In this document: one piece after another, positions 8,790 through 46,521 of the stretch
Numbering within the stretch: the stretch's first letter is position 1
Layout: every line of letters starts with the position of its first letter
Assembly (NCBI GenBank): GCA_963760175.1
Contig: CAVXBU010000026.1
Coordinates: 29,075-93,074 of the forward strand
Reading direction: 5' to 3'
From: an uncultured Acidobacteriaceae bacterium
GTDB lineage: Bacteria; Acidobacteriota; Terriglobia; Terriglobales; Acidobacteriaceae
DNA: 64,000 nucleotides
Position numbers and translations under genes: made by a program
Notes under the pieces: model-generated
What the model saw: the letters and a program-made list of their open reading frames with translations, nothing else
Databases searched by the model: none
What the model was told of the DNA's origin: nothing

Positions 8790-8829
8790 AGGTCAGGTGC
8801 CAGGTCTCAGATCTCAGGGGACCATCCGG

Positions 8830-10539
<1,710 letters not shown>

Positions 10540-10620
10540 TCAGGTCGTTATCTCACCACGGAGACACGGGGACACCGAGAAAAACACGAGTTTACCAGAA
10601 CGTAACCATGGGAAGTGGTT

Positions 10621-10869
10621 CTAGAGCCGAGCCTGAATCCGATTCGCCAGCGTACGAAAATCTGACACGCCCTGCAGTTCATAGTCCGGCAATTCGATGC
10701 GGAAGTGATGCTCGAGGCGGGTGAGCAAGTCGAGCGCCTGCAGGCTGTCGATTCCGAGTGTCTTGAAAAAGTCGTCGTCGGGCGTGAGCTTTTGCCGGGG
10801 CACCTTGAAATGCGCAGCCGCAAGATTCAGGATTTCGTCGAGCGTGTGATCGATAGTCGGCGCAGACAT
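10621..10869 (-). CDS. Acyl carrier protein (stand-alone phosphopantetheine-binding)
   Basis: 82 aa with the 'LGIDSLQALDL' DSL phosphopantetheine attachment motif. Confidence 0.85.
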   Translation of the reverse strand: MSAPTIDHTLDEILNLAAAHFKVPRQKLTPDDDFFKTLGIDSLQALDLLTRLEHHFRIELPDYELQGVSDFRTLANRIQARL

Positions 10870-10895
10870 AACGGGATAGTCCCTCTAATTACAGA

Positions 10896-11700
10896 TTAAG
10901 GTAAATACGGCTGCACTCCCTCATTCTCCACAAACTTGCGCAACCCCTCTTCGACGGCCGGACGCGAATAGAGGTCGCAGAAAATATCAATCTCCCGCTT
11001 TAGCTCATCATACGGAATCGGCTTCACAAACTCCTTCGCCGCCGCTGCCGTCCGCCGGTCAAATTTCCCGACCTGGCTGGCCGTGGCGCGTGCTACACGC
11101 AGCGCCTCACCTTCCGCGGCAATCTGGCTGACCAGACCAATCTGCTGCGCCTTCATCACGTTGAAGCTGCGTCCGGTGAGCAGCAGGTCGCGCACCACCG
11201 CATTGCCCAAATCCCGCTTCAGACGGGGAATCCCGCCGAATCCTGGAATCAGCCCGAGGCGCAGTTCCGGAAAGCAGAATCGCGCCATGCGGTCGGCAAT
11301 AATAATGTCGCACACCAGCGCCAGCTCGAAGCCGCCGCCAAAAGTCACGCCGTGCACCGCGGCGATGGTCGTTAGCGGCGCCGCGTCGAGCGCGTTCATG
11401 ACGGCGTGTATGCGCTCCAGGAACTCTCGCACGCTGCGCAGGGCTGTGGCCTTTTCCATCTCTTGCCCGCGTTCAAATAACTCGCGCAAATCCGCGCCCG
11501 CCGAAAACCCGGCCTTCAACGTCGAATGGATTATCAACGCCTGCGCTTCATTCGCCACTCTGGGCAGAGCCGACGCAAATTTCTCCAACTCTTCCAAGCG
11601 TGAGCGACCCAATCTCGTTGCAGGGATCGCGATGCAATGCCAGCTCAATCGCTCCATTCACGATCTGCCACGAAAGCGTCTGCCCTTTGAATTCGTTCAT
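10896..11700 (-). pseudogene. Enoyl-CoA hydratase/isomerase (crotonase) family protein, frame broken near 11594 as assembled
   Basis: 'FSAGADLRE' and 'HGVTFGGGFELALVCD' crotonase motifs. The N-terminus MNEFKGQTLSWQIVNGAIELALHRDPCNEIGSLTL is in another frame, starting at ATG 11700 (ATGA overlap with the upstream stop). Removing one G in 'cttggaa' joins it to EELEKFASAL. Confidence 0.8.
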
Positions 11701-13442: not shown

Positions 13443-13474
13443 GTTGATATGAAGTGGAAATTCTAGAAGTGCGG

Positions 13475-14884
13475 CTATCCGTATGCCGCCACCAGTTGCC
13501 TCAAGCCCTCATTCATCGGCGGCAAATAATCCTCCCAGCTCCATTCGCCGCGCCGGGTCGGAAATTCCGGATACCGCCGCTGCACCTCTTCCTCGAAATA
13601 CACGCCCATGCGCGCCATCAATTTCAAATTCCTCACCACCGTCCGCGCAATTCCGTCGGCGATTCGTTCCCCGTCGCGATCCAGAATTTCGAGCGCTGCC
13701 AGAGTTCGTGCCTCAAGATCCGGATCATCCACATTCATCAGCAACTCCTGATGCCCGCGCTCGTTCATCAGATTGCGGATGCGTTCATCCATGGTGATCC
13801 CCGCCGACGCCACCAGCGCCGGCATTGAAGTCACGATCCCGTGATAACGCGACGACACCATCATGCGGCAGGCGCGCAGAATGCTGACCAGTTGATACAT
13901 GTTGTAATCGTCCGAGGATATTATCGGAACTCCTCCCAGCTTCTCCGAAATGCGCCGGCATGGCCGTGCATCCATGCGCTCGGTCGCCGCCATGATCACA
14001 AACACACTCTTCTTCTGGCGAAACGACGCGACCGCATTTGCGATCGAATTCAAGTAATGTTCGTAAGCCCGATCCGCCTCGGGCCCGGCATTATGAAAAT
14101 AGGGTCCGCGGTAGTGGCTCTCCTTATATGCCCCGGTCAGGCGGTGCAGCGCGGCCTTCGCCACCGACGCCTTGACCGGCCACTCAAACGGGTTGATCGG
14201 ACACACCACGAGCACGGGCGTCTTTCCATCCCAACCCACGTCGCGTAGCGCTTTCTGGCCATACTCGGCGCCCAGCGGCTCGAACGTCCAGGCTGTGTCG
14301 GTGCCCAATTCGGTGGGTACACCCAATTCTCGCAGGATTTTCCGCGACTCGTCATTGCGGGTGATCACCAGCGAGTTTTTGCAATAGCGTCCGCACATCT
14401 TCGCTACCACGGGATCCATCTGTCCCGCCTCGGAGCCGTAGCCGACCGACAACTTGTTCTCGGCCGCCGCAATCCCCAGCGATCCGATCATCATCGTCGC
14501 CAGCGCATTGGCGAATTTTGATTTGAAAGCCGAACCTTCACACGCCACCACACCGTGATGCTTGGGCACTTCACTCGCCAGGAACGGCGGGAAAACATCC
14601 GGCAGCCGCACCTGCGAAGTGCCCTCGAAATATCCGCGCGACCGGTCAAAATTAAACGTCATCATGCTGAAGTCGACGTTTTCCGGCCCAAGAATCCGCC
14701 GAATCTGCCGCAGCATTTCTTCTACACGCACATCGGAGCCGGTATTGCGCGTCCCGTTGTAGCCGGCAAACAACAGCTTCAGTTTTTCGCCCGGCTGCCA
14801 CGGCTCGCGCTTTCCCATCATCCACTGAATTTTCTTGCCCTCGATGATGCTCGATACCCACGCTTCCAGAACGAAGTCCATCAT
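13475..14884 (-). CDS. Polysaccharide pyruvyl transferase-like family protein
   Basis: 'LKLLFAGYNGTRNTGSDVRVEEML' and 'SSRYHGIVTSMPALVASAGI' resemble WcaK/CsaB-type pyruvyl transferases, judged from memory of the family pattern. ATGA overlap with the upstream gene. Confidence 0.55.
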   Translation of the reverse strand: MMDFVLEAWVSSIIEGKKIQWMMGKREPWQPGEKLKLLFAGYNGTRNTGSDVRVEEMLRQIRRILGPENVDFSMMTFNFDRSRGYFEGTSQVRLPDVFPPFLASEVPKHHGVVACEGSAFKSKFANALATMMIGSLGIAAAENKLSVGYGSEAGQMDPVVAKMCGRYCKNSLVITRNDESRKILRELGVPTELGTDTAWTFEPLGAEYGQKALRDVGWDGKTPVLVVCPINPFEWPVKASVAKAALHRLTGAYKESHYRGPYFHNAGPEADRAYEHYLNSIANAVASFRQKKSVFVIMAATERMDARPCRRISEKLGGVPIISSDDYNMYQLVSILRACRMMVSSRYHGIVTSMPALVASAGITMDERIRNLMNERGHQELLMNVDDPDLEARTLAALEILDRDGERIADGIARTVVRNLKLMARMGVYFEEEVQRRYPEFPTRRGEWSWEDYLPPMNEGLRQLVAAYG

Positions 14885-16019
14885 GCCGCAGAGCCTCCCG
14901 CCCTGGTGCTCTCGGGCCAGGCTTGATAAGGGTATGTGAAATTGTGCTCGCGGCTGAAGCGGAGCAGCGGAAAACTGTAATGTGAAAACGGCACGGGCTT
15001 GCGTCCCAATTCCGTCGTGACGCGCGTGTTGTCGAAGACTGTGTTCCAGGTCAAATACGGCAGAAAGACCTTCATCAATGCGGCTCCGTGCCCCACTGAT
15101 CCTTTTCGGTTTGCCAGCGTGTTGACGATGGAGCCGAATGGCTTTTCGAGGATTGGCAAAAACACTGGCCCGCGCTTGTTCTGCTCAGCGGCGAGCGCCT
15201 GGGTCAATTCCTGAAACGACTGGGGCCGTTGCCCGAAGAAAGATGATAGGTATCGTGCTCGGGATCGGCCTTCATGTGCAAAGTCGAAATCGCGTCGGCA
15301 ACGAAATCCACATTCACAATGTCAATCTTGTCATGGGGACGAAACGGCAGCACCGGCAATCCCGCCAGAAACACGAACGACCGCACCATATCGAACTGCG
15401 TCGTTTGCGGAAAGCGGCTGTCTCCCAACACGATGCTCGGCCTGAAAATCGTCAGCGGCACGTCCGGGAGCAACTCGCGCACCATATGCTCGCAGAATTT
15501 TTTCGTGCGCGCGTAGGGATCGTAATCCGAGCGTTCCCAGTCAATCGACCGGTCTTCCACCACAACTTCGTGGCTGCGCTTCCCTGCCACTGCGACCGTG
15601 CTCACGTTGGAAAACCGCCGCAGGCCGTGATAGTACTGCGATCGCCGCGCCAGTTGCAGCACTTCGAGCGTCCCGCGCAGATTCACATTCAAGCAACTTT
15701 TTTCCGACTTCCGATTCAGCGAAGCCGCGCAGTGGATCACTGAATCGGTGGTGTGCACGAGCCGGTCGTAATCGCCCGGGTCCAACCCGAACTGTGGCGA
15801 GGTCAGATCGCCGCGAAAAATCCGGATCTTCGCCTGCAGGTATTCGTAGAATTTAGGGAACGGCAAGTGTAACTGGATGGCATTCCAAAGCCGCAGTTCC
15901 GCGTCACGCGGATCGCGGCCGCGCACGAGAAGATTCAGCGATGCGTCATGCTGATCGAGCAGATTAGCGGCGACATGGGCGCCGATGTACCCGGTCCCAC
16001 CGGTCAGGAATATTGCCAC
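14881..16019 (-). pseudogene. NAD-dependent thioester/acyl reductase (NAD_binding_4 / SDR-e type), frame broken at about 15222 as assembled
   Basis: '[14 protein letters not shown]' Rossmann motif and 'YARTK' YxxxK. ORFs 15204-16019 and 14881-15207 sum to about 379 aa. Adding one C to the run at 15222-15225 gives ...[20 protein letters not shown]... Confidence 0.75.
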
Positions 16020-18472
16020 GTTGCTCCGTTTGTTCCCGTCTTCACGGCATCGCCATTTTCTGGCGCTTTTGAAGGTGGCGCAGGCGAAGGTGGCATGTGC
16101 AGCACCCGCGGTGCGCGCGCTTCCAGCGGCCGCCCTTCAATCAGTGGATACGTCCATCGCCGCAATGCCGGAATATGGATGTCAATCCAATACTCCCACC
16201 AGTCCAGCCCCGCCGTGTCATATCCGAAAATCTCTTTCTCTTCGGGCGTCAGGGCCTGCGACAACTTCTCTACATTATCCGCGACAAAATCATGTTCGTT
16301 TTGCAGAATAAACGGCTCGAACAGTCCCACTAATTTTTCCACGCGCTCCAGGTTACGCTCGGTTTTCGCCAGTGGCTTCTTCATGGCCGATGGCAGCGGC
16401 GCCATCACTCGCTGAATCGACTGGATAATCATTCTCTGCGCCGGCGCCGACATCCGGTTATAACGCTCCTTTGAAACCGGAATCGCATCCATGCGCAATC
16501 GTAGCCAGTACTCCAGGCCTTCCTGGGCTCGGTAGTGACGGCGATGGCCCAGGCTCGTCAACTCAATCGACCGTCCCATGTCGCAAGGATTGGTCACCGA
16601 CGTCGCCAGCTGATACATCGGATCGTGCCGCCGCTCCACCAGCGCCGCGCCAATCAGCGTAATCCCCGCGCACACCGCATCCACTGGAATAATGTCCAGC
16701 CGCTTGCGCTGGTTGGAAGGGAGCTGCCGAAAGGTTGTCCCCAGCAGATACGAAAGCGAGGCCGAAGTGTTGATCCCTTCATTCCACCCACGAAACGGCT
16801 TCGTCACCGAAGTCTCGACAATCGACGGCCGCACAATCGCAATCGGAAGGCCCGCGCCATGTTTAGCAATCAGCGATTCCGCCAGGCTCTTGGTAAACGT
16901 GTAGGTATTTGGCCAGCCCAACTCGTTGGCGCGCCGCGTGGCTTCTTCCGTAAGATAATTTTTCAGCCACCGAACCCGGTTCTTGCGGATCTGATTTTCC
17001 AGCGCCTGGCCGCTCAGCCCTTTTGCGGCATGCTCTTTGCCGAGCGCTTGCTGCTTAAGCTCCTCGGTAACTTCCGGTCCTTCCGCCCGCGCCTCCGCCG
17101 ACTCCACCAGTTCATGCAGACGACGCCACTCTTTTTCCGAGTCGAAGTTCTTCAGGTGCGCCGGAGTGTAATTCAAGCGCACGCGCTCACTGACCCGCCC
17201 ATCGCGCTGTCCCGCCACATAGCAAGTCGAAAGATGCAGCAACGCCGCGTGATCGGACGCGCGAATAAATTCGATCAAGTGCGATGCCGAATCTACGTTC
17301 ACCGCCAACGCGTCCCGCAGATCGGGATTGAAATCCGTCAACCCCGAGCTGTTGATGATCAGATCGATCTCCGCACGCAGGCGCGTCGCCGTCTCTGAAT
17401 CCATTCCCAAGCCGGGCTGCGCGACATCACCCTCCACCACTTCAGTTTTTTCCTTCAGCAGCGCGCCCAGCCGGTCACCGTATTTTTCAAACAAGGGATC
17501 GAACACCGGCGACCCTTCAATGATTTTCTCGAAGCGCTTCTGCGCCGGACTCGATTTCTGCCGCCGGATCAGCAGATACAACTTTCCGATTTCAGGCAGA
17601 TCCATCAAGGTGTTCGCCAGCCACACTTTGCCGATAAATCCGGTGACGCCGATCAGCATCACGCGCTTGCCGCCCAGCGCCTTGCGCACCGAAAACGGCT
17701 CCGGGTGGCGCTTTTCATTGAAATACACAATCGGACGAACGCGCGGCGCTTCCACTCGCACCGCTGGAACAATCGCCGAGGCCAGCGCCTTCGGACCGCG
17801 CAGTCCGAGCGCCCGCACCCATCGCGCCGGACTCTGCTGCCCGTCTGGACCATCTTCACGAATCCGGGCAAACAATCCCCGCGGCCGGATCACCGGACTG
17901 AGTAGCCGTCCGGTGGCAACGCCGTCGCGGAAATCGAGTCGGTTGGCTATAATCCAACGCACTCCCAGATACCGCGCCAGCGGCCGCATCACGTGCTCCA
18001 ACCCCTGGCTCACCAGCACCACGTCGACGCCGGTCGCCTGCAACGCTTTCAGGTGCCGGACTCCTTCTTCTTTGAGCAGCGGCTTCAACTTGTATTCGAA
18101 TTCCTCCTCGCCCAGCAGATCGAGCCGGTCGCGGGTAATCCCGCGCAGCACGGCGTGGACGATCCGAGTCGCGGCGACGCGGTTCGCGGCATATAAAAAT
18201 GGCCGCAGCAACGCCATCAAAAGCACCAGGCTGCGGCGCACGGCTCGCGCGATATAGGTCTGGCTGTTCCAGGTAAAAAAAGCGATTGGTCGAACCGTGG
18301 TCAGCTCCAGCAGACTTCCCTCGACACGCCAGTAAACGGGCGATGAAGGCCGCGAACGAGGAGGCGGCGAAACGACTCCCGAGGCCGACGGCAGGGCTGC
18401 TGTCGGCGCGTCCGGGTCAGCCGGAGCACCCGCAAGTCCTCGTTCCCTTTCGAGATTGTCCACAGGTTCCAC
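16004..18472 (-). CDS. Fusion protein: HAD-IB-like domain plus fatty acyl-CoA/ACP reductase (NAD_binding_4 and 'male sterility' C-terminal domain)
   Basis: '[14 protein letters not shown]' Rossmann motif, 'STCYV', and 'YTFTKSLAE' YxxxK. The N-terminal ~200 aa resemble HAD-IB phosphatases. 822 aa, GTG start. Confidence 0.8.
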
Positions 18473-18667
18473 GAATCAATATCCGGTTGTGCCTTGTCCA
18501 AAGACACTTTTGCGAGGTAGCTTTCTCCCGGCTCACAGTGTCCCCGGAAAAGGACGGGATCATCCATTCTAACCTCTCCTCCCGAAAGCACGAAGAATAA
18601 CCGCAAGCCCATCCCCGCCCGGTTTTGGGCAAGAGTTGAGGGCTAGTGGTATGACCGCAGAACTAGT

Positions 18668-19877
18668 TCACTTCGCCCGCGCCAGTTCACGAATCTGGTT
18701 CAGGTACCCCACGTACACCGGGATCGGAATATCCGGCGAGTCCCCATCATTCAGGAAATGAGACAGTTGAATCTCCATGGGAATCGAACTGATAACTTCG
18801 CGGAACCGCGCCATCTTCAAATACTTCACCCGCCAGATCTCGAGCATCAACGAACGAAACTCTTCGCTGATAAAGCCGATCCGCCGATCTCCGAGATAGA
18901 CGGCGTCGAAATGTCTTGCGCCGAGCGCCTTCCGAACGGGATCGTCGGGTAGAGAGAATTCATATACGAGATGAAACACATCCGCCAGATCGCCCCACAG
19001 CGTTTTTTCTTCGAACGCACTGAAGCGGAATGAGGCCGCGCCGCGCTGCTGAACCGCCCGCGCATGATCGCTCGGGCTCAGCCCGTGACTCCCCAGTTCC
19101 GCACGAAACCATTGCAATCGCTGCGTTGCAAGGTTGTGCCGCAGGAATTCGATAGCATAAGCGTTCGGCAAGTAGATCTTGGGATCGCCATCGAGGCGCG
19201 CCAGCCACGGCCCCCAGTCGCTTCTGTTCCAGTAAGTCGAGTAACTCCTTCAAATCGGCTAGCGTAACATCGGGCTGATACTTCACCGCCTGCCAGAAAT
19301 GTTCAGTCGAGTCGTAAGTCGCGCCATAAAGCTGGATACCTTCCTCAATTAGGTACCAATTCGACAGCACGCGTCCGGGGATCGACGGTGACGCGCTCCA
19401 GCAGTTCAGCGAATGCTTCCATTTCTCCTGCACAGCCAGAAACGCCTCGCCGTATCCCGGCGGAATCGGCTCGGTTACGTGCGCAAGGGCCTGCCGCAGC
19501 TCTTCGCTGGTGTGTGTTACCAGCGTCTCCAGCGGCCGCTCGTCTTCCATGGAGATCACGCGGCTTTCGATTCCGCGCCGCAGCAATTCGCCCGCCAGTT
19601 GCCGCCGCTGCTCTTGATCCAGACCGCCCTGAACATTCCAGCGCCGCGTTTGCGACTCGATATACGGGAATAACTCGGCCAGCGACTTGAACTCGATGAA
19701 CGCATGAAGCGCGAATGTCACCGGGCGGCCATTCTTTACGATCGTGGTTGAAGGAGTAACCAGTGCCTGCAGAGAAGTAGCTTCCGCGCACAGTGGTCGG
19801 ACCACGCTAATGACCGTTAATGTCGTACATAATATCAACCAAGAGACAGCTTGTATATTCCTTGAACGCTTCTTCAC
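18668..19877 (-). pseudogene. Secreted NADAR (YbiA/DUF1768)-like protein, frame broken at about 19215-19225 as assembled
   Basis: Signal peptide (VSWLILCTTLTVISVVRPLCAEA). 'LSNWYLIEEGIQLYGATYDSTEHFWQAVKY' matches the NADAR 'FSNF..(n)..W.TSEHYFQA.KF' pattern. The continuation DWGPWLARLDGDPKIYLPNAYAIEFL... is in the frame of ORF 18668-19171. Confidence 0.55.
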
Positions 19878-23701: not shown

Positions 23702-24898
23702 TTGATAATCCCCATGACAATTTCGCTCCGCCGACGCCTGCCCTGGCTCGTTCTCGTCGCCATCCTGTCGCTGGTGACCATAACCGCCGCCAAGGAACCC
23801 CCCAAGAACAAGTATCTGCTCTTCGTTGGCACTTACACCGAGAAGGAAAGCAAGGGCATTTATGCCTACCGTTACGATGCCGCATCCAATCAACTAACTC
23901 CTCTGGGTGTAGCGGCGGAAACGACCAATCCCTCATTCTTAGCGATCGACCCGAGTCGCCGCTTCCTGTATGCCGTAAATGAAGTGCAGAACTATAAAGG
24001 CGCGAGCAGCGGAGCGGTAAGCGCCTTTGCCATCAATCTTGGGGCTGACGGTCGTCAGACCGGCACCCTATCTCTGCTGAACCAAGTCCCCTCGCGCGGC
24101 GCTGACCCGTGTTACATCGCATTCGACAAGAGCGGAAAATACGCTCTGGTGGCCAACTATACTGGAGGAAGCGTCGCTGTGTTCCCGGTTCAGTCGGACG
24201 GCCACATCGGCGACCCTTCCGCGTTCGTTCAGCACCGGGGGTCGAGCGTCAATAAAGAACGACAGGAGGGCCCGCATGCTCATTGGATCGAAACCACGCC
24301 CGACAATCGTTTCGCGATAGCTGTCGATTTAGGCCTGGATGAGTTACTCGTCTACCACTTCGACGCCAGTAAAGGCTCCCTAACTCCAAACGATCCGCCC
24401 TACGCCAGTGTCGATCCCGGAGCGGGACCGCGCCACCTGGCTTTTCATCCCAATGGAAAATTTGCCTACGTCGTCAATGAATTGCAATCCACCATCACCG
24501 CTTTTAGCTATGATCCGGGCCGAGGCGTCCTTGAGAAACTGAAGACGGTCTCGACGCTTCCAAAAGGATTCTCCGGCAGCAACGATACGGCTGAAATTCG
24601 GGTCCATCCTAACGGTAAGTTTCTATTCGCCTCGAATCGCGGACACGATAGCATCGCCGTCTTCTCTGTCGACAGCCGCACAGGAGCCCTGACCCTTGTG
24701 GATCACTACCCGACGCAAGGGAAGACGCCGCGTAACTTCGAGATTGATCCCAGTGGAAAGCTTCTGTTCGTCGCCAACCAGGGCAGCGACAATATCGTAG
24801 TTTTTCGAATCAACTCCGACAACGGAAGACTGACGCCCACCGGCCAGACCCTCAATGTCCCCTCGCCAGTGTGCCTGAAGTTCATGCTCGCCGACTGA
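23702..24898 (+). CDS. Lactonase family 7-bladed beta-propeller protein (6-phosphogluconolactonase-like), secreted
   Basis: Signal peptide (LPWLVLVAILSLVTITAA). Repeated 'G..P.h.af.p.Gk.ayv.N' blades, e.g. GADPCYIAFDKSGKYALVANY and GAGPRHLAFHPNGKFAYVVNE. An alternative start is at 23714. Confidence 0.85.
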   Translation: MIIPMTISLRRRLPWLVLVAILSLVTITAAKEPPKNKYLLFVGTYTEKESKGIYAYRYDAASNQLTPLGVAAETTNPSFLAIDPSRRFLYAVNEVQNYKGASSGAVSAFAINLGADGRQTGTLSLLNQVPSRGADPCYIAFDKSGKYALVANYTGGSVAVFPVQSDGHIGDPSAFVQHRGSSVNKERQEGPHAHWIETTPDNRFAIAVDLGLDELLVYHFDASKGSLTPNDPPYASVDPGAGPRHLAFHPNGKFAYVVNELQSTITAFSYDPGRGVLEKLKTVSTLPKGFSGSNDTAEIRVHPNGKFLFASNRGHDSIAVFSVDSRTGALTLVDHYPTQGKTPRNFEIDPSGKLLFVANQGSDNIVVFRINSDNGRLTPTGQTLNVPSPVCLKFMLAD

Positions 24899-24914
24899 GG
24901 CGGCGCATGCGGAG

Positions 24915-24955
24915 TCAAAACAAAACGGGCCGCTCTTTGTCTCTTCGAGCGGCCC
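24915..24955 (-). terminator. Rho-independent terminator (possibly bidirectional)
   Basis: 9-bp stem GGGCCGCTC / GAGCGGCCC (24927-24935 / 24947-24955). On the minus strand it is followed by GTTTTGTTTTG. It lies between the convergent genes ending at 24898 and 24992. Confidence 0.6.
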
Positions 24956-24991
24956 AATACTTTTAAACCTCGAAACTCCTCAACTTTGAAG

Positions 24992-27148
24992 TTAGTCTCC
25001 CGCCACCGGCTCACCAACCTCGGCACTCTTGTTGGCGGCACCGTTCCCATTGGCCGGAGCGATCGCCGCAGTGATCGCTGCCAGCGGAATGAATCCACCT
25101 TCATTCGACGTTGCCGGCTTCTCTTTCAGAACAACTTCCCGATAGAGCTGCGCCATGCGCGCGTCGTAGGCCGCGTCGTTCTTGACCTTGTTGGTCTCGG
25201 CCTTCTTGTCGCGGGCCCGTGCTTTTTCTTCGCGCGCCGTCTTTGCGATCCCCAGATTATCCAGATCGTGCTGCACTTCGTGGGTAACGATCTCTTCTCG
25301 CAGGTAGAGCGCGTGCTCTTTGTCTTCCATGTTGACTTTCTTGCCGCCCGCGAAAATCTCGTGACGTCCGTGCTCCTCGTACCACTTGGTGAGGGTCGAG
25401 GTCATGTGCATCTTCTCGATGATGTTGCGCCAGCCCACGCCCGTGTTGTAAGCGCAGAAACTGATCTCGCCTTCCTGCGTGGCATAAGGAATGATGCACT
25501 GCTCGGTGCGCCGGAAGTCGTAGTTGAACAAATCCTGGAACCACATGCCGGCGATGAACAGGAAATTCCAGCGATCCTGACGGCGCTTCATCACGTCGTC
25601 AATGGTCCGGTCCGGACCAACTTTGCCGTAGTTCCGTCCCGTCGCATTGAAGTTCTTGTCGAACTTCCTCAGCAAGTCGATCATCTTGAAGTGCGTGGGC
25701 GATTGGAACGGATCGTAGTTCTTCATCAAGCAAAGCGCCATGCCGAAGGCCGTCCAGAATTTTGAACGTGCCGCGTCATTGACCTTGGCGATGTCCTTGG
25801 CGAGCTGATCGCCCTTCAAGAACGCTGTCACCGGCACTGCTTCTTTGGTTTCCTTGTCGATCATCATCGCCATGCCGGTGCCGCAATTGGGATGGCATCC
25901 GCAAGAGAGTTGACCCCAATCGTTATTCGTATCCTGGGAGTGCAGGACATCGGCCCAGTCGGAGAACGTGCTCATGAAACTGATCGGGAACCAGTCGCGC
26001 GTCGGTTCGCCGAAACCGGTCTGATTTTTTACGTCGTGCGCGAGGTGGGCTAGCGTGTAGCGCTGCGCCTGGCGGCGGTCGTCGGTGATGGCTTCGTCGC
26101 GGCCAGTGAATGAAACCGGCTGGAAGCTGAGGAAGCCGATCTTTTTGGGATTGTCGAGCGCGAACTGAATGATGCGTCCGACTTGTTCGTTGTTGATGCC
26201 GTTAATGATGGTTACGACCGGAACGATTTCGCAGCCGGCGCGATGGAGGTTGTCGATGGCCTTCAATTTCACATCGAACAAGTTGCCCACGGCGCGATGA
26301 TCGTTGGCGGCGTTGCCGATTCCGTCGAACTGGAGATACGCATAACGCATGCCGGCTTCTACGGCTTGTTGGCAGAATTCAAAACTCTTCGCGAATTCGA
26401 TGCCGTTCGTGGCGGCTTGCACGCTGTTGTATCCGACTTTGCGCGCGTAGCGGACCGCGTCGAGGAAATATGGCGACAGGGTTGGCTCGCCGCCGGAGAA
26501 CTGTACAGACATTTGCCGGCGCGGCTTGATGGTAATCGCGTTGTCGAGCACGGTCTTGATTTCTTCCCACGTCAGTTCGTGGACGTAGCCCACCTGGTTC
26601 GCGTCCATGAAGCAGGGATCGCACATCATGTTGCAGCGGTTGGTGAGATCGACGGTGAGCACCGAGCCGCGTCCATACTTCACGGTGGAAGAACCGTGGT
26701 GATGCAGCTTCTCGTCGTTGTGGGCCTTGATGTCGCGGCCGGGGAAAACTTCTTCGAGGTGTTGCGAAAACTCTGTGTCGATCGACATCAGGTCTTCGAA
26801 GTGGCCATGCTTGGCGCAGTCTTTAACCATCCAGATTTTGCCGTCGCGCTCGATGATCTGGGCCTTGATTTCTCCTACTTTTTCGTTCATCAGAACGTCG
26901 ACGGGAAGATGCCCGTCGAGAATCTGTTGCCGAATCTCAGGCACGCACTTCGGACAAAGCGAATCGGTGGAGCGGGGCCAGCCCAGCGGCGGCTTCGACT
27001 TCTCCCACGATTTGAGCAGCGGCTTGTCGGACCACTTCGGAGTCGGCGACACATTCGGAGCGATGCGGTTCAGGCGTTGAAACACAGCCCATGCGCCAGT
27101 GGCGGCAACCGTCACAACCTTCTCTACATATTTGATCGGCTTGTGCAT
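24992..27148 (-). CDS. Radical SAM protein of the COG1964 / tetraether lipid synthase (Tes, GDGT-MAS)-like type
   Basis: 'LTNRCNMMCDPCF' CxxxCxxC and 'FSGGEPTL'. N-terminal knuckle 'LCPKC ... CAKHGHF', with extra Cys clusters 'SCGCHPNCG' and 'CIIPY ... FCAYN'. The ATG at 27148 (MHKPIKY) has an upstream GAGGAAAG. Confidence 0.8.
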   Translation of the reverse strand: MHKPIKYVEKVVTVAATGAWAVFQRLNRIAPNVSPTPKWSDKPLLKSWEKSKPPLGWPRSTDSLCPKCVPEIRQQILDGHLPVDVLMNEKVGEIKAQIIERDGKIWMVKDCAKHGHFEDLMSIDTEFSQHLEEVFPGRDIKAHNDEKLHHHGSSTVKYGRGSVLTVDLTNRCNMMCDPCFMDANQVGYVHELTWEEIKTVLDNAITIKPRRQMSVQFSGGEPTLSPYFLDAVRYARKVGYNSVQAATNGIEFAKSFEFCQQAVEAGMRYAYLQFDGIGNAANDHRAVGNLFDVKLKAIDNLHRAGCEIVPVVTIINGINNEQVGRIIQFALDNPKKIGFLSFQPVSFTGRDEAITDDRRQAQRYTLAHLAHDVKNQTGFGEPTRDWFPISFMSTFSDWADVLHSQDTNNDWGQLSCGCHPNCGTGMAMMIDKETKEAVPVTAFLKGDQLAKDIAKVNDAARSKFWTAFGMALCLMKNYDPFQSPTHFKMIDLLRKFDKNFNATGRNYGKVGPDRTIDDVMKRRQDRWNFLFIAGMWFQDLFNYDFRRTEQCIIPYATQEGEISFCAYNTGVGWRNIIEKMHMTSTLTKWYEEHGRHEIFAGGKKVNMEDKEHALYLREEIVTHEVQHDLDNLGIAKTAREEKARARDKKAETNKVKNDAAYDARMAQLYREVVLKEKPATSNEGGFIPLAAITAAIAPANGNGAANKSAEVGEPVAGD

Positions 27149-27462
27149 TCTGCTCTCGCTTTCCTCTAGCTCGGGAGATTGGAACTGTCCCCACGGTCCC
27201 GCGTACGGGAACCAGTGCAAATAGACCCTTTCCACGGAGAAACCTACCTGTAAAACCCAGAAGTTTCGAAGCCTGGAATGGTCACATTGATACTATTGAA
27301 TCCGTGACATTTAGGCACGAAGAAGGCAATGAAGGGGAGAAAAACGGGGTTAAGCGGGGAAATGGGGGATTTTTTGGGGGTAAGTTGTTGAAAAGATGGG
27401 GACATGGAATGGCAGGCAGGGCTAACGGCAAAGGGTCCTTCCCGGACGGCCCCAAACGGCGA

Positions 27463-28363
27463 CTAGTTCGCGACCAGACTGTGCACTTCAGCGATGTAGC
27501 CTCCTGGAAATTCCACAATCGCGGTTGCTCGGTCGCTGGTGGAGTAAGGCACCGACAGAATCTTCACTCCTGCCGTTTTGGCCTTCACCAGCGTCGCAGC
27601 GAGATCTTTCACCTCGTATCCGGTTATCTCGTGTCCGAACGGATACGGCAAATGGCCGTCCGTCACCAAAACCTGCATATTGCCAAAGCGTGATGTAATA
27701 CGGATGCGCCGATAGGTCTCTCCCCGGCGTCCGATCTCGCCTGCGTCGGCCTGCTTGTCGTCGGCGACAACCTTGCCGCCGGCAAAGGTGACGAAAGAAC
27801 GCACAAAGTTATCGGCCTGGTCTTTCGATACGTAGACGCGGTTTTCGGGAATGGTTTCGAGCGGCGGGTTTGTGGATGGCTTGAAGTGCCAATAGAGTTG
27901 CATTTTTACGCCGCCGGGCCATTGGATGATCGCGTCGATTCCAATGGGGTCTTTGAAAGGTTCGACAATCACCTCTGCTCCAGCGGCTCGAGCAGCCTTG
28001 ATCGCCTGGTCCATGTCTGCGACCAGATATCCGGTCCGCTCATCTCCAAAGGGAAACGGAACTGGCGTCTGATACGCAAAGACCGAAATTGCGCCTACTG
28101 GGGTTAGCACGGCCTGCATTTCTGTACTGCTCGAAACGGGGGTCACGTTCGCTACGCTTCGCTTCAAAGAGCTGCCGCCGAAGGTGGCGACGAAGCTGTT
28201 CACCAACGCATCGAAGTTCTCCGGCGCGACATAGACGTGTGTCGTATCGTACTCCGGCCCCACGGCAACAGATCCGCTGTCTGCCGACTGCACCTTGGTA
28301 TCCGACGCGAACGCCCCGAGGGCCATTAACAACAGGACTTCGAGGAAAAAGTCGAGTACGCAT
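27463..28363 (-). pseudogene. Secreted tandem glyoxalase/VOC-fold protein, frame broken inside the signal peptide (about 28344-28350) as assembled
   Basis: Two repeats end like VOC domains ('IVEPFKDPIGIDAIIQWPGGVKMQLYWH', 'ILSVPYSTSDRATAIVEFPGGYIAEVHS'). ATG 28363 gives MRTRLF. A one-base correction in 'tttttcc' continues it as LEVLLLMALGAFA-SD. Confidence 0.55.
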
Positions 28364-31804: not shown

Positions 31805-32155
31805 TCACGCCGGAGAACGAACGCCATCCTGATGCACATACTTGATCACTTCCACGTCGGACACGGCGATTAGACCATCGTCCACCATCTGATCCAGCGC
31901 AGGCAGCAGCTTGCTGATGTTCTCGTGCGTATCCACAACCGACACCATGATGGGGCGATCGGAAGACCAGAGAAGGTGGGCGCGGTGAATCAGCGTGCTC
32001 GCACCGTAACCTTCAATACCGCGGTAGACCGTGGCTCCGGCAATGTCGAGTTCCCTGCACTTTTCGACGATCGCCTGGTAGAGAGGCTTGCCATGCCACT
32101 TGTCGTCTTCGCCGAAGTGAATCCGGAGCATCTTGGCCTTGCCTTCGAGTTTCAT
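31805..32155 (-). CDS. DUF190 (PII-like, COG1993) domain protein
   Basis: 'KMLRIHFGEDDKWHGKPLYQAIVEKCRELDIAGATVYRGIEGYG' is the DUF190 signature. ATGA-type overlap with the upstream gene. Confidence 0.8.
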   Translation of the reverse strand: MKLEGKAKMLRIHFGEDDKWHGKPLYQAIVEKCRELDIAGATVYRGIEGYGASTLIHRAHLLWSSDRPIMVSVVDTHENISKLLPALDQMVDDGLIAVSDVEVIKYVHQDGVRSPA

Positions 32156-32892
32156 GCGCGTGTCTCCTGCCGCCGCTCGGTTTTGTCGTAGTTGTGCGTG
32201 TACTTGATGACATCGACATCGGAAAGCACAACCAATCCTTGCTGCACCATTTCATCGAGGATTGGCATGAATGCTTTGAGCTTCTCCTCGGCATCAACGA
32301 TGGAGAGCAGGATCGGCCGGTCATGCGAGAGGCTGAGCGCAGCATCCTTGTGGATTCTCCGATTCGCGCCATAGCCCAGAATTCCGCGGTAAACCGTTAC
32401 GCCGGCAATATCGTGAGCTCGCAAACCGCCGACAATCGCTTCATATAGAGGTTTGCCATTCCACTTGTCATTCTCGCCGACGTAAATCCTCATCAACTTG
32501 GCCTTGCTCTCGCTCCTGAGCGCGGGTTTCTCGGGCGCGGCCGCTTGCTCTTTCTTTGTCTTCGCCTCAGCCGGCTTCACGATGGTCGTGTCGTGCATTT
32601 CAATCAGCCCGCTTCCCACCATCGTTTGCAGTTTGGGCAGCAACTCCCCCACTTTCTGCGCAGTCTCGATGAACTCAACCTTAATAGGCAAACGGGTTGC
32701 CAGATCCACCAGCCGGGTCGTGTGCAGTTTATGATCGGAGCCAAATCCGGCGATACCGCGCGTCACGGTTGCGCCCGCTACGCCCCGGAAGAACAGAAAA
32801 TCCAGGATGGCGGCGTAGGCCGCACTCCCGTGATACTGCTGGTCTTCCGCCACATAGATCGCGACCTTCTTTGCAGGTCCAGATGTGAGCAC
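32152..32892 (-). CDS. Tandem DUF190 domain protein
   Basis: Two DUF190 repeats ('VAIYVAEDQQYHGSAAY ... GATVTRGIAGFG' and 'LMRIYVGENDKWNGKPLYEAIV ... GVTVYRGILGYG') joined by a K/E/A-rich linker. Confidence 0.8.
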   Translation of the reverse strand: MLTSGPAKKVAIYVAEDQQYHGSAAYAAILDFLFFRGVAGATVTRGIAGFGSDHKLHTTRLVDLATRLPIKVEFIETAQKVGELLPKLQTMVGSGLIEMHDTTIVKPAEAKTKKEQAAAPEKPALRSESKAKLMRIYVGENDKWNGKPLYEAIVGGLRAHDIAGVTVYRGILGYGANRRIHKDAALSLSHDRPILLSIVDAEEKLKAFMPILDEMVQQGLVVLSDVDVIKYTHNYDKTERRQETRA

Positions 32893-33008
32893 TTTTTCTC
32901 CTCCGGTCTACGTTTAGAGTCCTCGCTGGCTGATAAACAATTCGGCTGCACGCCCTAGCATTCCACCACCTGCGTGATCTCCTTGATTGCATCCGCCTGC
33001 ATCTGTCT

Positions 33009-33386
33009 TCATGGGATCGCCCTCCCGGCCACGACACCGGCCCAAACCGCTGCGAAGCCAACCACCACGCTCAACGTGATGTTGAGGAAAGAGATTAACA
33101 ATTGGCCGTCCTGCACGCTGCGCAGCGTCTCATATTCGAATGTCGAAAACGTCGTATAAGCGCCGATGAACCCGATCGGGACCAGGTATATCCAATTCGG
33201 ACTCCAACGCGTCTTCTCTTCCAGTAGAGTGAGGATCAGGCCGATGAGAAACGATCCGGAAATATTGATCACAAAGGTTCCGTATGGGAAACGTGTTCCC
33301 ATCTTCCCTCCGATGTAGCTCCCCAACCAGAAGCGTGCGATCGCACCCACGAAGCCACCGATTCCGACCATTAGGTACTTGAGCAA
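33009..33386 (-). CDS. crcB: Fluoride ion channel CrcB/Fluc
   Basis: 'GIGGFVGAIARFWLG', 'PYGTFVINISGSFLIG' and 'GFIGAYTTFSTFEYE' are CrcB motifs. TTG 33386, with AAGGA 9 nt upstream, is preferred. ATG 33371 is the alternative. Confidence 0.9.
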   Translation of the reverse strand: MLKYLMVGIGGFVGAIARFWLGSYIGGKMGTRFPYGTFVINISGSFLIGLILTLLEEKTRWSPNWIYLVPIGFIGAYTTFSTFEYETLRSVQDGQLLISFLNITLSVVVGFAAVWAGVVAGRAIP

Positions 33387-33552
33387 TTCGTGCCGTCCTT
33401 TTCTGTTTTGCTGAGCTTTTGCATGAAACCCACGGACGCAGAAACGCACGCGTCCTGCTCACTTTATGTGCTCAGCTACTCAGGAATCTCTTGGAATCAG
33501 AAGCGGAAGGGGCCGGCAGACCAAATCCCTACCAAGAGAATTCCTTCTTCTT

Positions 33553-33603
33553 CGTAGGAGTCATCTGCCCGATTCGGGCGGTTAAAGGTGAACTCCAACA
33601 CCC
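33553..33603 (-). promoter_or_regulatory. Fluoride riboswitch (crcB RNA motif)
   Basis: Minus strand: GGGUGUUGGAGUUCACCUUUAACCGCCCGAAUCGGGCAGAUGACUCCUACG. It has P1 GGUG/CACC, pseudoknot GGAGU/ACUCC, P3 GCCCG/CGGGC, and conserved AACCGCC and GAUGA.UCCUAC. It sits directly upstream of crcB. Confidence 0.85.
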
Positions 33604-33753
33604 AAGGGAATTATGACAATCCGTCAGCATGAAGTCAATTGCCCCGAGTCAGGGCCGTGGCCCTTCGTCCTGCTCACTGCAAAATTGCCGAACTAACTGA
33701 ATACTTGGAGACCGCACTGTATTAGGATTCAGGGAGTTGCGGGAATATACGAG

Positions 33754-45952: not shown

Positions 45953-46103
45953 GAATCCGGCGTCGCCCCTTGGTGAGTTATCGGCAAAAGCGTTGCCGTC
46001 ACCAGCAAATGAAGAGGTTACTGAGGGTCGCGGCGGAAGCCAGGGTACGCAGACACGCGCGCGAGCCGGAGATCGAAGGTCTCCGGCTCGCCCGTCGGGA
46101 CCA

Positions 46104-46499: not shown

Positions 46500-46521
46500 G
46501 GGCTGCTGGTCAAGGTAACTT

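What the first reader, a model, noticed from the sequence alone, without database searches (positions are those of the whole stretch)
24992..27148. Bacterial homologue of the archaeal tetraether lipid synthase (Tes / GDGT-MAS type radical SAM): candidate membrane-spanning lipid synthase
Seen in the sequence:
- A 718-aa radical SAM protein with the 'CNMMCDPC' CxxxCxxC motif and 'GGEPTL'.
- An N-terminal Cys knuckle ('CPKC ... CAKHGHF').
- Two further Cys-rich blocks ('SCGCHPNCG' and 'CIIPY...FCAYN').

This layout is what I remember for the COG1964 family, which contains M. jannaschii GDGT-MAS (MJ0619) and M. acetivorans Tes (MA_1486). Those enzymes couple two lipid tails C-C to make membrane-spanning tetraethers.

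Bacterial homologues, notably in Acidobacteria, have been proposed as the missing enzyme for brGDGT / iso-diabolic-acid lipids. To my knowledge none has been genetically validated.

This copy also carries a ~90-aa Lys/Ala/Glu-rich C-terminal tail ('REEKARARDKKAETNKVKND ... AIAPANGNGAANK'). I do not associate such a tail with the archaeal enzymes.
Basis: partly seen in the sequence, partly recalled or inferred. Interest (0 to 1): 0.8.

Follow-up and report, generated by a model that had tools for sequence, protein, structure and literature searches.

The report
Divergent acidobacterial tetraether-synthase-like radical SAM enzyme
This gene encodes a soil-acidobacterial relative of the archaeal enzyme that welds two lipid tails into a membrane-spanning lipid. 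It belongs to a divergent "long" branch of that family, has never been tested, and was already proposed in print as a candidate maker of bacterial brGDGT climate-proxy lipids.

Summary

The protein belongs to the Tes/GDGT-MAS radical SAM family:
- The best NCBIfam model is Tes.
- The best PDB sequence hit is GDGT-MAS 7TOL (E 1e-58).
- An AlphaFold model superposes on 7TOL/7TOM over about 560 columns (TM 0.85-0.86).

It is not the canonical Tes orthologue:
- It scores 313 bits against a Tes cut-off of 450.
- It has no cysteine where GDGT-MAS binds its N-terminal [4Fe-4S] cluster.
- It carries an N-terminal helix, an insertion in the rubredoxin-like domain and a family-conserved C-terminal tail of about 130 aa.

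It keeps the rubredoxin-like Cys3His site, the radical SAM motif, the C-terminal-cluster cysteines and the equivalents of Met439 and Tyr459.

This "long" type is very conserved (75-98% identity) in at least 598 species genomes; the 80 inspected are almost all Terriglobia (Acidobacteriota). Its gene neighbourhood is not conserved. Two related genomes carry a true canonical Tes paralogue (578-589 bits) 2-6 kb away, so the two types are distinct paralogues.

The brGDGT/iso-diabolic-acid hypothesis was published in 2022 and was still unvalidated in 2025-26 papers. A lipid tail-coupling function is plausible (about 0.5) but not shown.

The parts
24992..27148 (-). Complete gene for the 718-aa Tes/GDGT-MAS-like radical SAM protein; the stop codon is 24992-24994.
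   Evidence: ORF list; Pfam; NCBIfam; PDB search; AlphaFold model with pLDDT 80.7; Foldseek match to 7TOL/7TOM.
26978..27148 (-). N-terminal extension, residues 1-57. It holds a confidently predicted, moderately amphipathic helix (residues 2-29) and a conserved 'PKWSDKPLLKSWEKSKPPLGWPR' linker. It lies upstream of the part of the protein that matches GDGT-MAS.
   Evidence: pLDDT 84-95 for the helix at residues 2-29; 79-90% column identity in 81 orthologues; hydrophobic moment 0.39-0.47 and no transmembrane segment; the region is also present in the Terriglobus roseus paralogue.
26783..26977 (-). Rubredoxin-like zinc-ribbon domain, residues 58-122. The invariant residues are C65, C68, C111 and H114, a CX2C...CX2H arrangement. 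The spacer between the two halves is about 42 residues, against 20 in M. jannaschii GDGT-MAS.
   Evidence: Pfam PF23545 Zn_ribbon_HMPTM, 49.6 bits; residue invariance; the GDGT-MAS motif C9X2C12X20C33X2H36 from PMC9433317; the insertion is visible in alignment A1.
26663..26782 (-). [quoted passage not shown] It contains no cysteine. It has the invariant histidines H130, H143, H149 and H151 ('KAHNDEKLHHHGSS'). The model confidence is low here.
   Evidence: The canonical motif CPxxCGxCxxH is aligned to 'KLHHHGSSTVKYGRG'; 0 Cys in the 45 residues upstream of the radical SAM motif; invariant histidines; pLDDT 53 for residues 141-160.
26099..26662 (-). Radical SAM core, residues 163-350. It has the cluster motif C172-X3-C176-X2-C179 and the SAM-binding motif GGEPTL at residues 219-224.
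   Evidence: Pfam PF04055, E 7e-18, residues 168-330; residue invariance; motif positions.
25379..26098 (-). C-terminal auxiliary-cluster and lipid-pocket domain, residues 351-590. The invariant residues are C416, C418, H419, C422, M535, C551, Y555 and C565. C422, C551 and C565 align with conserved GDGT-MAS cysteines (inferred [4Fe-4S]C ligands), M535 with the labile ligand Met439, and Y555 with Tyr459.
   Evidence: Residue-by-residue alignment to 7TOL; residue invariance; cofactor description in PMC9433317 and PMC13459092; Foldseek alignment covering 555-564 columns.
24995..25378 (-). Family-specific C-terminal tail, residues 591-718. It is mostly low-confidence or disordered, with one long charged helix at residues 638-674. 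It carries conserved short motifs (HDLDxLGIAKxAREEKxRARD; ARMxxLYRExVLxEKP; GF[IV]PL; and a C-terminal xGD) separated by variable linkers.
   Evidence: pLDDT and secondary structure; column conservation; tail alignment of 16 orthologues; the proteins carrying the canonical N-cluster motif end 15-75 residues after the FCxYN motif, against 130-150 here.

Best explanation
The gene encodes a soluble or peripheral-membrane radical SAM enzyme of the Tes/GDGT-MAS family. It belongs to a divergent 'long' subfamily that is widespread and strongly conserved in Terriglobia (Acidobacteriota).

The most likely function is a Tes-type reaction on bacterial membrane lipids. The steps below are all inferred by analogy with M. 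jannaschii GDGT-MAS; none is shown for this protein:
1. The radical SAM cluster (C172/C176/C179) cleaves SAM.
2. The 5'-deoxyadenosyl radical abstracts a hydrogen atom from the terminal carbon of a branched (iso-C15-type) alkyl or acyl chain held in a hydrophobic pocket.
3. The carbon radical is parked on a sulfide of the C-terminal [4Fe-4S] cluster (C422/C551/C565, with M535 as labile ligand).
4. A second SAM generates a second tail radical, which attacks the parked carbon and forms a tail-to-tail C-C bond. The product would be an iso-diabolic-type membrane-spanning chain, the skeleton of brGDGTs.

The protein differs from the archaeal enzyme in three ways. It has no N-terminal auxiliary [4Fe-4S] cluster, so electron delivery must run differently, perhaps through the retained rubredoxin-like Cys3His site. 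It has an extra N-terminal helix. It has a conserved C-terminal tail carrying short linear motifs, which probably docks a partner or the membrane.
For: Family assignment:
- The best NCBIfam model is Tes, covering 482 of 486 profile positions, E 3e-93.
- The best PDB sequence hit is GDGT-MAS 7TOL, E 1.3e-58, over residues 93-589.
- The AlphaFold model (pLDDT 80.7, pTM 0.80) matches 7TOM/7TOL with target TM 0.85-0.86 and E 3e-33. The next hits cover only the radical SAM core, with query TM about 0.25.

Catalytic residues:
- The rubredoxin-like Cys3His site, the radical SAM CX3CX2C motif, three C-terminal cysteines and the Met439 and Tyr459 equivalents all align and are invariant in 81 orthologues.
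- The mechanism of the family is described in PMC9433317 and PMC13459092.

Phyletic and ecological fit:
- The long type is found in at least 598 GTDB species genomes. Of the 80 best, nearly all are Terriglobales, Sulfotelmatobacter or Bryobacteraceae MAGs, many of them from bog, palsa or peat samples; the one cultured organism is Acidipila rosea.
- Solibacter usitatus, the cultured brGDGT producer, has a 714-aa, 30%-identical second Tes homologue. Edaphobacter aggregans, which makes brGDGTs under low oxygen, has one 32%-identical homologue. That these two are the long type is inferred from length and identity only.

Selection: 75-98% identity across the 80 loci, including the Bryobacterales MAGs (77%), points to strong purifying selection.
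Against: - No activity data exist for any bacterial Tes homologue.
- The protein fails the Tes equivalog cut-off, 313 against 450 bits.
- It lacks the [4Fe-4S]N ligands entirely.
- Canonical Tes paralogues exist in Acidobacteria and lie next to the long type in L047 and L048. The canonical copy is therefore the more obvious Tes equivalent, and the long copy may do something else.
- Tes homologues were detected in only 3 of 14 iso-diabolic-acid-producing acidobacteria.
- Terriglobus roseus, which I recall (not checked here) as an aerobic iso-diabolic-acid producer, carries a sister protein that has lost every C-terminal-cluster cysteine. That its genome lacks an intact long-type copy was not checked here.
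- No lipid genes are consistently adjacent, and the neighbourhood is not conserved.
- A distant Tes homologue of Thermoanaerobacter ethanolicus gave no membrane-spanning lipids when expressed in E. coli (preprint version).
Confidence: 0.5

Rival explanations
1. The protein is a Tes-derived paralogue that still acts on membrane-lipid tails but performs a different radical modification from the canonical tail-to-tail omega-omega coupling. Possibilities include a different substrate class (ester-bound against ether-bound lipids), closing the second bond (brGTGT to brGDGT), a different coupling position, or a cross-link or cyclisation. In this view it works alongside canonical Tes where both are present.
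For: - The long and canonical types coexist 2-6 kb apart on the same strand in L047 and L048, at only 33-35% identity.
- S. usitatus has one homologue of each size.
- An NJ tree separates a long, N-cluster-less group from canonical Tes.
- The cofactor set differs (no [4Fe-4S]N), and two extra invariant cysteines, C416 and C418, lie next to the C-terminal-cluster ligand.
- The family-specific tail and N-terminal helix suggest different partners.
Against: - All residues so far implicated in the Tes coupling chemistry are kept.
- Most long-type loci show no canonical copy within 10 kb, and whether the two co-occur genome-wide is unknown.
- No known brGDGT modification has been assigned to a Tes-like enzyme. 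Ring formation, methylation and cross-linking are attributed to other radical SAM families in archaea.
Confidence: 0.27
2. The protein is a radical SAM enzyme with the Tes fold that has been recruited to a non-membrane-lipid substrate, for example another hydrophobic metabolite or a cofactor. It would then be unrelated to membrane-spanning lipids.
For: - The score is below the equivalog threshold.
- One metallocluster has been lost.
- The gene stands alone in variable, non-lipid neighbourhoods.
- Related sister lineages (T. roseus P0137, P0143, P0148) have lost C-terminal-cluster ligands, which shows that the scaffold is evolving away from canonical chemistry.
- The family was once annotated as a pterin methyltransferase. 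Source annotations still say so, although Lloyd et al. could not corroborate that activity.
Against: - The whole-length fold matches GDGT-MAS, including the C-terminal domain that forms the lipid pockets.
- The Met and Tyr residues that are completely conserved in archaeal Tes are kept.
- No alternative family scores better.
- The distribution fits organisms and habitats rich in branched tetraethers.
Confidence: 0.15
3. The protein is catalytically impaired or purely regulatory or structural, a relic of Tes.
For: One cofactor site is lost. Degenerate sister proteins exist.
Against: - Every remaining metal ligand and the SAM motifs are invariant in 81 orthologues.
- Identity is 75-98% across the 80 loci, including the Bryobacterales MAGs, which indicates strong purifying selection.
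- The reading frame is intact, with coding-type codon bias.
Confidence: 0.05

Closest known systems
GDGT-MAS / Tes of Methanocaldococcus jannaschii (MJ0619; PDB 7TOL, 7TOM)
   Same: - Same overall four-domain fold: target TM 0.85-0.86 over about 560 columns.
- Rubredoxin-like Cys3His site.
- Radical SAM CX3CX2C and GGEPT motifs.
- Three aligned C-terminal cysteines.
- Equivalents of the labile Met439 and of Tyr459.
   Different: - Only 26-27% identity.
- No N-terminal [4Fe-4S] cluster ligands.
- An insertion of about 22 residues in the rubredoxin domain.
- A 57-residue N-terminal extension containing a helix.
- A C-terminal tail of about 130 residues.
- Two additional invariant cysteines, C416 and C418.
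- A bacterial host whose lipids are not isoprenoid diethers.
Canonical acidobacterial Tes homologues: the L047 and L048 paralogues, and by published description Acid_5929 of S. usitatus and the Koribacter versatilis homologue
   Same: Same phylum, same Pfam architecture (Zn_ribbon_HMPTM plus Radical_SAM), and the same retained C-terminal-cluster motif set.
   Different: - The canonical copies pass the Tes cut-off at 578-589 bits.
- They hit 7TOL at E 1e-145.
- They keep the CPDDCGLCGMH N-cluster motif.
- They are 545-569 aa with short C-termini.
- The window protein is only 33-35% identical to them and falls in a separate tree group.
Second 'Tes homologue' of Solibacter usitatus (Acid_2410, 714 aa) and the single homologue of Edaphobacter aggregans, as listed by Halamka et al. 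2022 and Zeng et al. 2022
   Same: - Length (714 against 718 aa), identity to MA_1486 (30-32%) and E-value range (4e-61 to 4e-62) match what this protein shows against archaeal Tes.
- The long type is present in Bryobacteraceae MAGs at 77-82% identity.
- Both were proposed as brGDGT synthase candidates.
   Different: I could not obtain these sequences, so equivalence is inferred, not shown. The papers do not distinguish the long type from canonical Tes and do not mention the missing cluster or the tail.
Mss, the bacterial membrane-spanning lipid synthase of Thermotoga maritima and Thermoanaerobacter ethanolicus
   Same: A radical SAM enzyme that couples two fatty-acid tails to make diabolic or iso-diabolic acids, the reaction proposed here. 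Its authors report a Tes-like catalytic architecture in models.
   Different: A different radical SAM lineage. Its authors found no mss homologues in Acidobacteria, and it has been found only in anaerobes. It is experimentally validated by expression in E. coli, which the window protein's family is not.
Terriglobus roseus DSM 18391 radical SAM protein WP_014786616.1 (P0137)
   Same: Sister lineage, 38% identity over 613 aa. It shares the N-terminal helix, the rubredoxin insertion, the absence of the N-cluster, the radical SAM motif and the GMWFQD motif.
   Different: It has lost all five C-terminal-domain cysteines and most of the tail, so it cannot use the cluster-sulfur intermediate chemistry.

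Membership tests
Radical SAM superfamily (PF04055) | CX3CX2C motif ligating the SAM-binding [4Fe-4S] cluster, and a Pfam score above the gathering threshold. | tested here: met
   C172, C176 and C179 are invariant. PF04055 scores 65.7 bits against a cut-off of 29.5.
Radical SAM superfamily (PF04055) | Glycine-rich SAM-binding motif (GGE). | tested here: met
   GGEPTL at residues 219-224, in a block with 97% column identity.
Tes / GDGT-MAS (NCBIfam NF045702, equivalog) | Whole-protein score at or above the curated equivalog cut-off of 450 bits. | tested here: not met
   313 bits, although Tes is the best-scoring model. Canonical acidobacterial paralogues score 578-589 bits.
Tes / GDGT-MAS | The best hit among solved structures and the best fold match is GDGT-MAS over the full length. 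| tested here: met
   7TOL at E 1.3e-58 over residues 93-589. Foldseek 7TOM/7TOL at E 3e-33, target TM 0.85-0.86, 555-564 columns.
Tes / GDGT-MAS | N-terminal rubredoxin-like mononuclear Fe site with three Cys and one His (C9X2C12X20C33X2H36 in MJ0619). | tested here: met
   C65, C68, C111 and H114 are invariant. PF23545 scores 49.6 bits against a cut-off of 27. The spacer is longer, about 42 residues.
Tes / GDGT-MAS | N-terminal auxiliary [4Fe-4S] cluster ligated by three Cys and a His (C73, C77, C80 and His; motif CPxxCGxCxxH). | tested here: not met
   There is no Cys between residues 111 and 172, and the motif is replaced by KLHHHGSSTVKYGRG. This cluster is not universal in proteins that pass the Tes cut-off: P0257 scores 584 bits and also lacks it.
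Tes / GDGT-MAS | C-terminal auxiliary [4Fe-4S] cluster with three Cys and a labile Met (Met439). | tested here: met
   By alignment, C422 (HPNCG), C551 (QCIIPY), C565 (FCAYN) and M535 (AGMWF) are all invariant. That these residues are the ligands is inferred from conservation, not read from coordinates.
Tes / GDGT-MAS | The active-site Tyr that is completely conserved in archaeal homologues (Tyr459). | tested here: met
   Y555 aligns with Tyr459 and is invariant.
Tes / GDGT-MAS | Catalyses Csp3-Csp3 coupling of two lipid tail termini to give membrane-spanning lipids. | not testable with these tools
   This needs genetics, heterologous expression or an in vitro assay. Papers up to 2025-26 report no confirmation for any bacterial homologue.
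TrsS radical SAM (seleno)protein (NF045646) | Score at or above the cut-off of 490 bits. | tested here: not met
   200 bits, second to Tes.
SPASM/twitch maturases, MoaA, NirJ/Ahb and B12-binding radical SAM methylases | Full-length match, or a SPASM or B12-binding domain. | tested here: not met
   Only the radical SAM core (residues about 160-365) matches, at 25-75 bits and far below the cut-offs. No SPASM or B12-binding Pfam domain was found. Fold hits have query TM about 0.25.
Mss (bacterial membrane-spanning lipid synthase) | Sequence homology to T. maritima Tmari_0825 or the T. ethanolicus Mss protein (WP_129545148.1). | not tested
   No Mss sequence or model was available in the tools. 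The authors report no mss homologues in acidobacterial genomes.

The most novel reading that the evidence does not exclude
The 'long' Tes-like subfamily has no N-terminal cluster, an extra N-terminal helix and a motif-bearing C-terminal tail. It is 75-98% conserved in at least 598 species genomes, nearly all Terriglobia among the 80 inspected. In the most novel reading, this subfamily, and not canonical Tes or Mss, builds the C30 iso-diabolic skeleton of brGDGTs in soil and peat Acidobacteria. It would then be the main genetic marker for the source of the brGDGT palaeothermometer. Its reduced Fe-S content and its partner-docking tail would be adaptations that let a radical SAM lipid synthase work in microaerobic bacteria.
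Probability: 0.3. Interest if true: 0.85.

Novelty: new variant of a known kind. Interest (0 to 1): 0.45.

Why it matters
brGDGTs are among the most widely used continental palaeotemperature and pH proxies, yet the enzyme that makes their membrane-spanning skeleton in Acidobacteria is still unknown.

The practical gain from this analysis is sharper candidate definition. Acidobacteria carry at least three Tes-family lineages, and metagenomic surveys that count 'Tes homologues' with loose BLAST cut-offs pool them:
- canonical Tes;
- the long type, which lacks the N-terminal cluster (this gene);
- a degenerate type, which lacks the C-terminal-cluster cysteines.

Knock-out or expression tests, and gene-based source attribution of brGDGTs, should treat the three separately.

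If the long type proves to be the synthase, it would also show that the Tes reaction can run without the N-terminal [4Fe-4S] cluster.

The hypothesis itself is not new, and nothing in this window proves it.

Tried and rejected
1. Conserved gene neighbourhood. I ran tblastn of 18 window genes against 80 related loci, and clustered all ORFs within 7 kb of the gene. Nothing is conserved beyond close relatives. The HAD-reductase gene recurs in only about 10 loci. Two more distant relatives are also stand-alone.
2. Operon, promoter and terminator scan of 24700-27600. No promoter-like site was found, and terminator-like hits were at the chance level. The result is uninformative.
3. A lipid operon between the long and canonical paralogues in L047 and L048. 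The intervening genes are OmpA-like, TetR, DAO, DinB, PPK2 and unknowns, so this was rejected.
4. Other lipid genes in the window such as PlsA/Ger, Grs-like or B12 radical SAM. None was found apart from the acyl-activation and reduction cluster at 7842-18472.
5. Identifying which cultured acidobacteria carry the long type. Three homologue searches and two cluster look-ups returned almost only metagenome or MAG entries. Only Acidipila rosea and, for the degenerate type, T. roseus were named.
6. Supplementary tables. Table S21 of Sahonero-Canavesi et al. is not held, and the supplements of Zeng et al. do not mention the taxa.
7. The 2011 AEM lipid survey (PMC3131667) is not held.
8. A transmembrane anchor. 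The maximum Kyte-Doolittle 19-residue score is 1.11, so this was rejected.
9. An alternative upstream GTG start giving 747 aa. This was rejected because homologue lengths and N-terminal conservation support the ATG.
10. Model coordinates are not exposed, so Cys-Cys geometry and the position of the N-terminal helix and tail could not be measured.


Full report
**Observation**

The window has a minus-strand ORF from 24992 to 27235. It is 747 aa from a GTG, or 718 aa from the ATG at 27148. The ATG start is the supported one:
- Homologues are mostly 700-730 aa.
- The first 60 residues are 79-90% conserved in 80 orthologues.
- A purine-rich stretch precedes the ATG.

Codon-position GC is that of a real gene: GC3 is 0.75 and GC2 is 0.39.

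**Family assignment**

- Pfam finds the 'HMPTM' zinc ribbon (residues 58-122) and a radical SAM domain (residues 168-330).
- The best NCBIfam model is 'tetraether lipid synthase Tes' (NF045702). It is matched over 482 of 486 profile positions at E 3e-93 and 313 bits, which is below the curated equivalog cut-off of 450. TrsS is second at 200 bits. All other radical SAM families match only the core.
- The best solved-structure relative by sequence is M. jannaschii GDGT-MAS (7TOL), at E 1.3e-58 over residues 93-589.
- An AlphaFold2 model built on a 19-sequence alignment has mean pLDDT 80.7 and pTM 0.80.
- Foldseek places that model on 7TOM/7TOL at E 3e-33, with target TM 0.85-0.86 over 555-564 columns. 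The next hits (SkfB, MoaA, viperin) cover only the radical SAM core, with query TM about 0.25.

**Cofactor sites**

Lloyd et al. (PMC9433317) describe four metal sites in GDGT-MAS:
- a rubredoxin-like Fe, C9X2C12X20C33X2H36;
- [4Fe-4S]N, ligated by C73, C77, C80 and a His;
- the radical SAM cluster;
- [4Fe-4S]C, with three Cys and the labile Met439. A fully conserved Tyr459 lies nearby.

The window protein compares as follows:
- The rubredoxin-like site is kept (C65, C68, C111, H114), with a longer spacer.
- The radical SAM motif is kept (C172, C176, C179).
- The C-terminal site is kept: C422, C551 and C565 align to conserved GDGT-MAS cysteines, M535 aligns to Met439 and Y555 to Tyr459.
- All of these residues are invariant in 81 orthologues.
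- The [4Fe-4S]N site is absent. There is no cysteine at all between C111 and C172, and the canonical CPxxCGxCxxH motif is replaced by 'KLHHHGSSTVKYGRG'.
- That replacement region has four invariant histidines (H130, H143, H149, H151) and low model confidence.
- Two further cysteines, C416 and C418, are invariant next to C422.

The enzyme can therefore hold at most two [4Fe-4S] clusters and one mononuclear site. Loss of the N-cluster is not unique to this protein: P0257, from Parcubacteria, scores 584 bits on the Tes model and also lacks it.

**A distinct paralogous subfamily**

A search of representative proteins found 583 clusters at E up to 1e-30. Full-length members split into two groups; an NJ tree without bootstrap support gives the same two groups:
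- A canonical group. These proteins pass the Tes cut-off, and all but P0257 keep the N-cluster motif. Those carrying the motif end 15-75 residues after the FCxYN motif.
- A group containing the window protein. These proteins lack the motif, score 170-414 bits and mostly have long C-termini.

Two related Acidobacteriaceae MAG loci carry both types on the same strand:
- L047 has the long type at 10001-12106 and a 560-aa canonical Tes at 14337-16019.
- L048 has a 569-aa canonical copy at 18163-19872.
- The canonical copies score 578-589 bits and have CPDDCGLCGMH.
- The L047 copy hits 7TOL at E 1e-145, against 1e-58 for the window protein.
- They are only 33-35% identical to the window protein.
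- The genes between the two types are not lipid genes.

A third lineage is represented by Terriglobus roseus WP_014786616.1. It is 38% identical to the window protein and shares its N-terminal helix and rubredoxin insertion, but it has lost all the C-terminal-cluster cysteines.

**Distribution and conservation**

A scan of one genome per GTDB species found at least 598 species with a relative. Among the 80 best, which are 75-98% identical:
- Nearly all are MAGs of Acidobacteriaceae, Terriglobales, Sulfotelmatobacter, Angelobacter or Terracidiphilus. Two are Bryobacterales. Many sample names refer to bog, palsa or SPRUCE peat.
- The only cultured organism is Acidipila rosea DSM 103428, at 78%.
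- The closest locus, L014, is 98% identical, so the window comes from an uncultured Acidobacteriaceae bacterium.

Database clusters hold up to about 2100 member sequences. Searches seeded with the A. rosea and Bryobacteraceae orthologues return the same family at 80-98% identity. Such identity across the 80 loci, which include Bryobacterales MAGs at 77%, for a 700-aa enzyme indicates strong purifying selection; this is my inference.

The gene neighbourhood is not conserved. In the window the gene lies between a convergent lactonase-like gene (23702-24898) and an upstream gene with only a weak, sub-threshold glyoxalase-like Pfam match (27463-28332), separated by a 314-bp gap.

**Family-specific additions**

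- Residues 1-57 include a confidently modelled, moderately amphipathic helix at residues 2-29.
- No transmembrane segment is predicted.
- The tail, residues 591-718, is mostly low-confidence, with one long charged helix at residues 638-674.
- The tail is not random. Across orthologues it keeps four short motifs separated by linkers of variable length: HDLDxLGIAKxAREEKxRARD, ARMxxLYRExVLxEKP, GF[IV]PL and a C-terminal xGD.
- That pattern suggests docking motifs for a partner or for the enzyme's own surface. This is inference only.

**Literature**

- Zeng et al. 2022 reported 456 bacterial Tes homologues, named Acidobacteria and proposed them as brGDGT synthases. They cite a 32%-identical homologue in E. 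aggregans and 40-42%-identical ones in Koribacter and Solibacter.
- Halamka et al. 2022 proposed diether condensation by 'one or both' S. usitatus homologues. Their table lists Acid_5929 (545 aa, 40.2%, E 1e-139) and Acid_2410 (714 aa, 30.1%, E 4e-62).
- By length and identity, Acid_2410 and probably the E. aggregans protein are the long type. I could not fetch those sequences, so this is inferred.
- Sahonero-Canavesi et al. 2022 validated a different radical SAM enzyme, Mss, in Thermotoga and Thermoanaerobacter. They found no mss in Acidobacteria, and they found Tes homologues in only 3 of 14 iso-diabolic-acid producers.
- In the preprint version of that paper, a 24%-identical Tes homologue of T. 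ethanolicus gave no membrane-spanning lipids in E. coli.
- Papers from 2025 and 2026 still describe bacterial Tes homologues as unconfirmed.

**Mechanism and verdict**

The most likely function is Tes-type radical coupling of lipid tail termini, using the retained radical SAM and C-terminal clusters. Electron entry would be altered because the N-cluster is missing. I put this at about 0.5.

The main rival, at about 0.27, is a related but different lipid-tail modification that complements canonical Tes. It is suggested by the coexistence of the two paralogues. A non-lipid role (about 0.15) or loss of catalytic function (about 0.05) is less likely, given the full-length fold match and the invariant ligands.

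None of the catalytic steps is shown for this protein.

The functional hypothesis is reasonable but already published, and it is weaker for this paralogue than for the canonical one. The new information here is the subfamily distinction: the missing cluster, the added N-terminal helix and tail, and the coexistence with canonical Tes. That distinction matters for choosing which genes to test and for metagenomic source attribution of brGDGTs.

Noticed in passing
window 7842-18472 (minus strand): A tightly packed lipid-type gene cluster on the minus strand:
- an 822-aa HAD + thioester/fatty-acyl reductase (NAD_binding_4) + 'Sterile' protein, 16004-18472;
- a second, 271-aa reductase, 15204-16019;
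- a 108-aa protein with no family match;
- a pyruvyl-transferase-like protein;
- two acyl-AMP/CoA ligases, 11697-13442 and 8830-10539;
- an enoyl-CoA hydratase;
- an acyl carrier protein, 10621-10869;
- a YegS-type lipid kinase, 7842-8789.

It could make fatty aldehydes or alcohols, the kind of chemistry ether-lipid synthesis would need. It lies 6.5 kb from the Tes-like gene and is linked to it in only about 10 of 80 related loci.
   Followed up: partly
L047 14337-16019 and L048 18163-19872: A canonical Tes paralogue (560 or 569 aa, 578-589 bits on the NCBIfam Tes model, with the CPDDCGLCGMH N-cluster motif) lies 2-6 kb downstream of the long-type gene, on the same strand, in two Acidobacteriaceae MAGs. 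The genes in between are not lipid genes.
   Followed up: yes
P0137 (Terriglobus roseus DSM 18391, WP_014786616.1): A sister lineage of the window protein, 38% identical. It keeps the radical SAM motif and the rubredoxin-like site but has lost all five C-terminal-domain cysteines. From memory (not checked here), the organism is an aerobic iso-diabolic-acid producer, so either this protein uses different chemistry or another enzyme makes iso-diabolic acid.
   Followed up: partly
window 31805-33611 (minus strand): A fluoride riboswitch (33548-33611, 47.5 bits) lies upstream of a crcB fluoride-channel gene (33009-33449). Two DUF190 genes follow, at 32152-32892 and 31805-32155.
   Followed up: no
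window 24995-25060 and the tails of the 80 orthologues: In the 16 orthologue tails inspected, all but two (L014 and L033, which diverge near the end) finish with a conserved C-terminal xGD (VAGD, VMGD, VYGD or VFGD), after a variable linker and a conserved GF[IV]PL motif. The purpose is unknown.
   Followed up: partly
L014 10001-12155: The closest relative (98% identity) diverges abruptly from the family consensus in its last 35 or so residues ('GGFIPSGCDHSCHR...'). This looks like a frameshift or assembly error in that MAG. The window copy follows the consensus.
   Followed up: no
window 26687-26728 (residues 141-154): An invariant histidine-rich loop (H143, H149, H151, plus H130 upstream) occupies the place of the lost [4Fe-4S]N cysteine motif. 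It may be a replacement metal site. The model confidence is low here.
   Followed up: no
window 42131-48602 (minus strand): A run of signalling genes: two hybrid histidine kinase/response regulators, a PAS histidine kinase, a PAS-only protein and a stand-alone receiver. A GGDEF fragment lies at 11-625 and an IS200-like transposase remnant at 775-1278.
   Followed up: no
P0257 (Candidatus Parcubacteria / Minisyncoccales): A protein from CPR bacteria scores 584 bits on the Tes equivalog model yet also lacks the N-terminal cluster cysteines. The N-cluster is therefore not universal even among proteins annotated as Tes.
   Followed up: no
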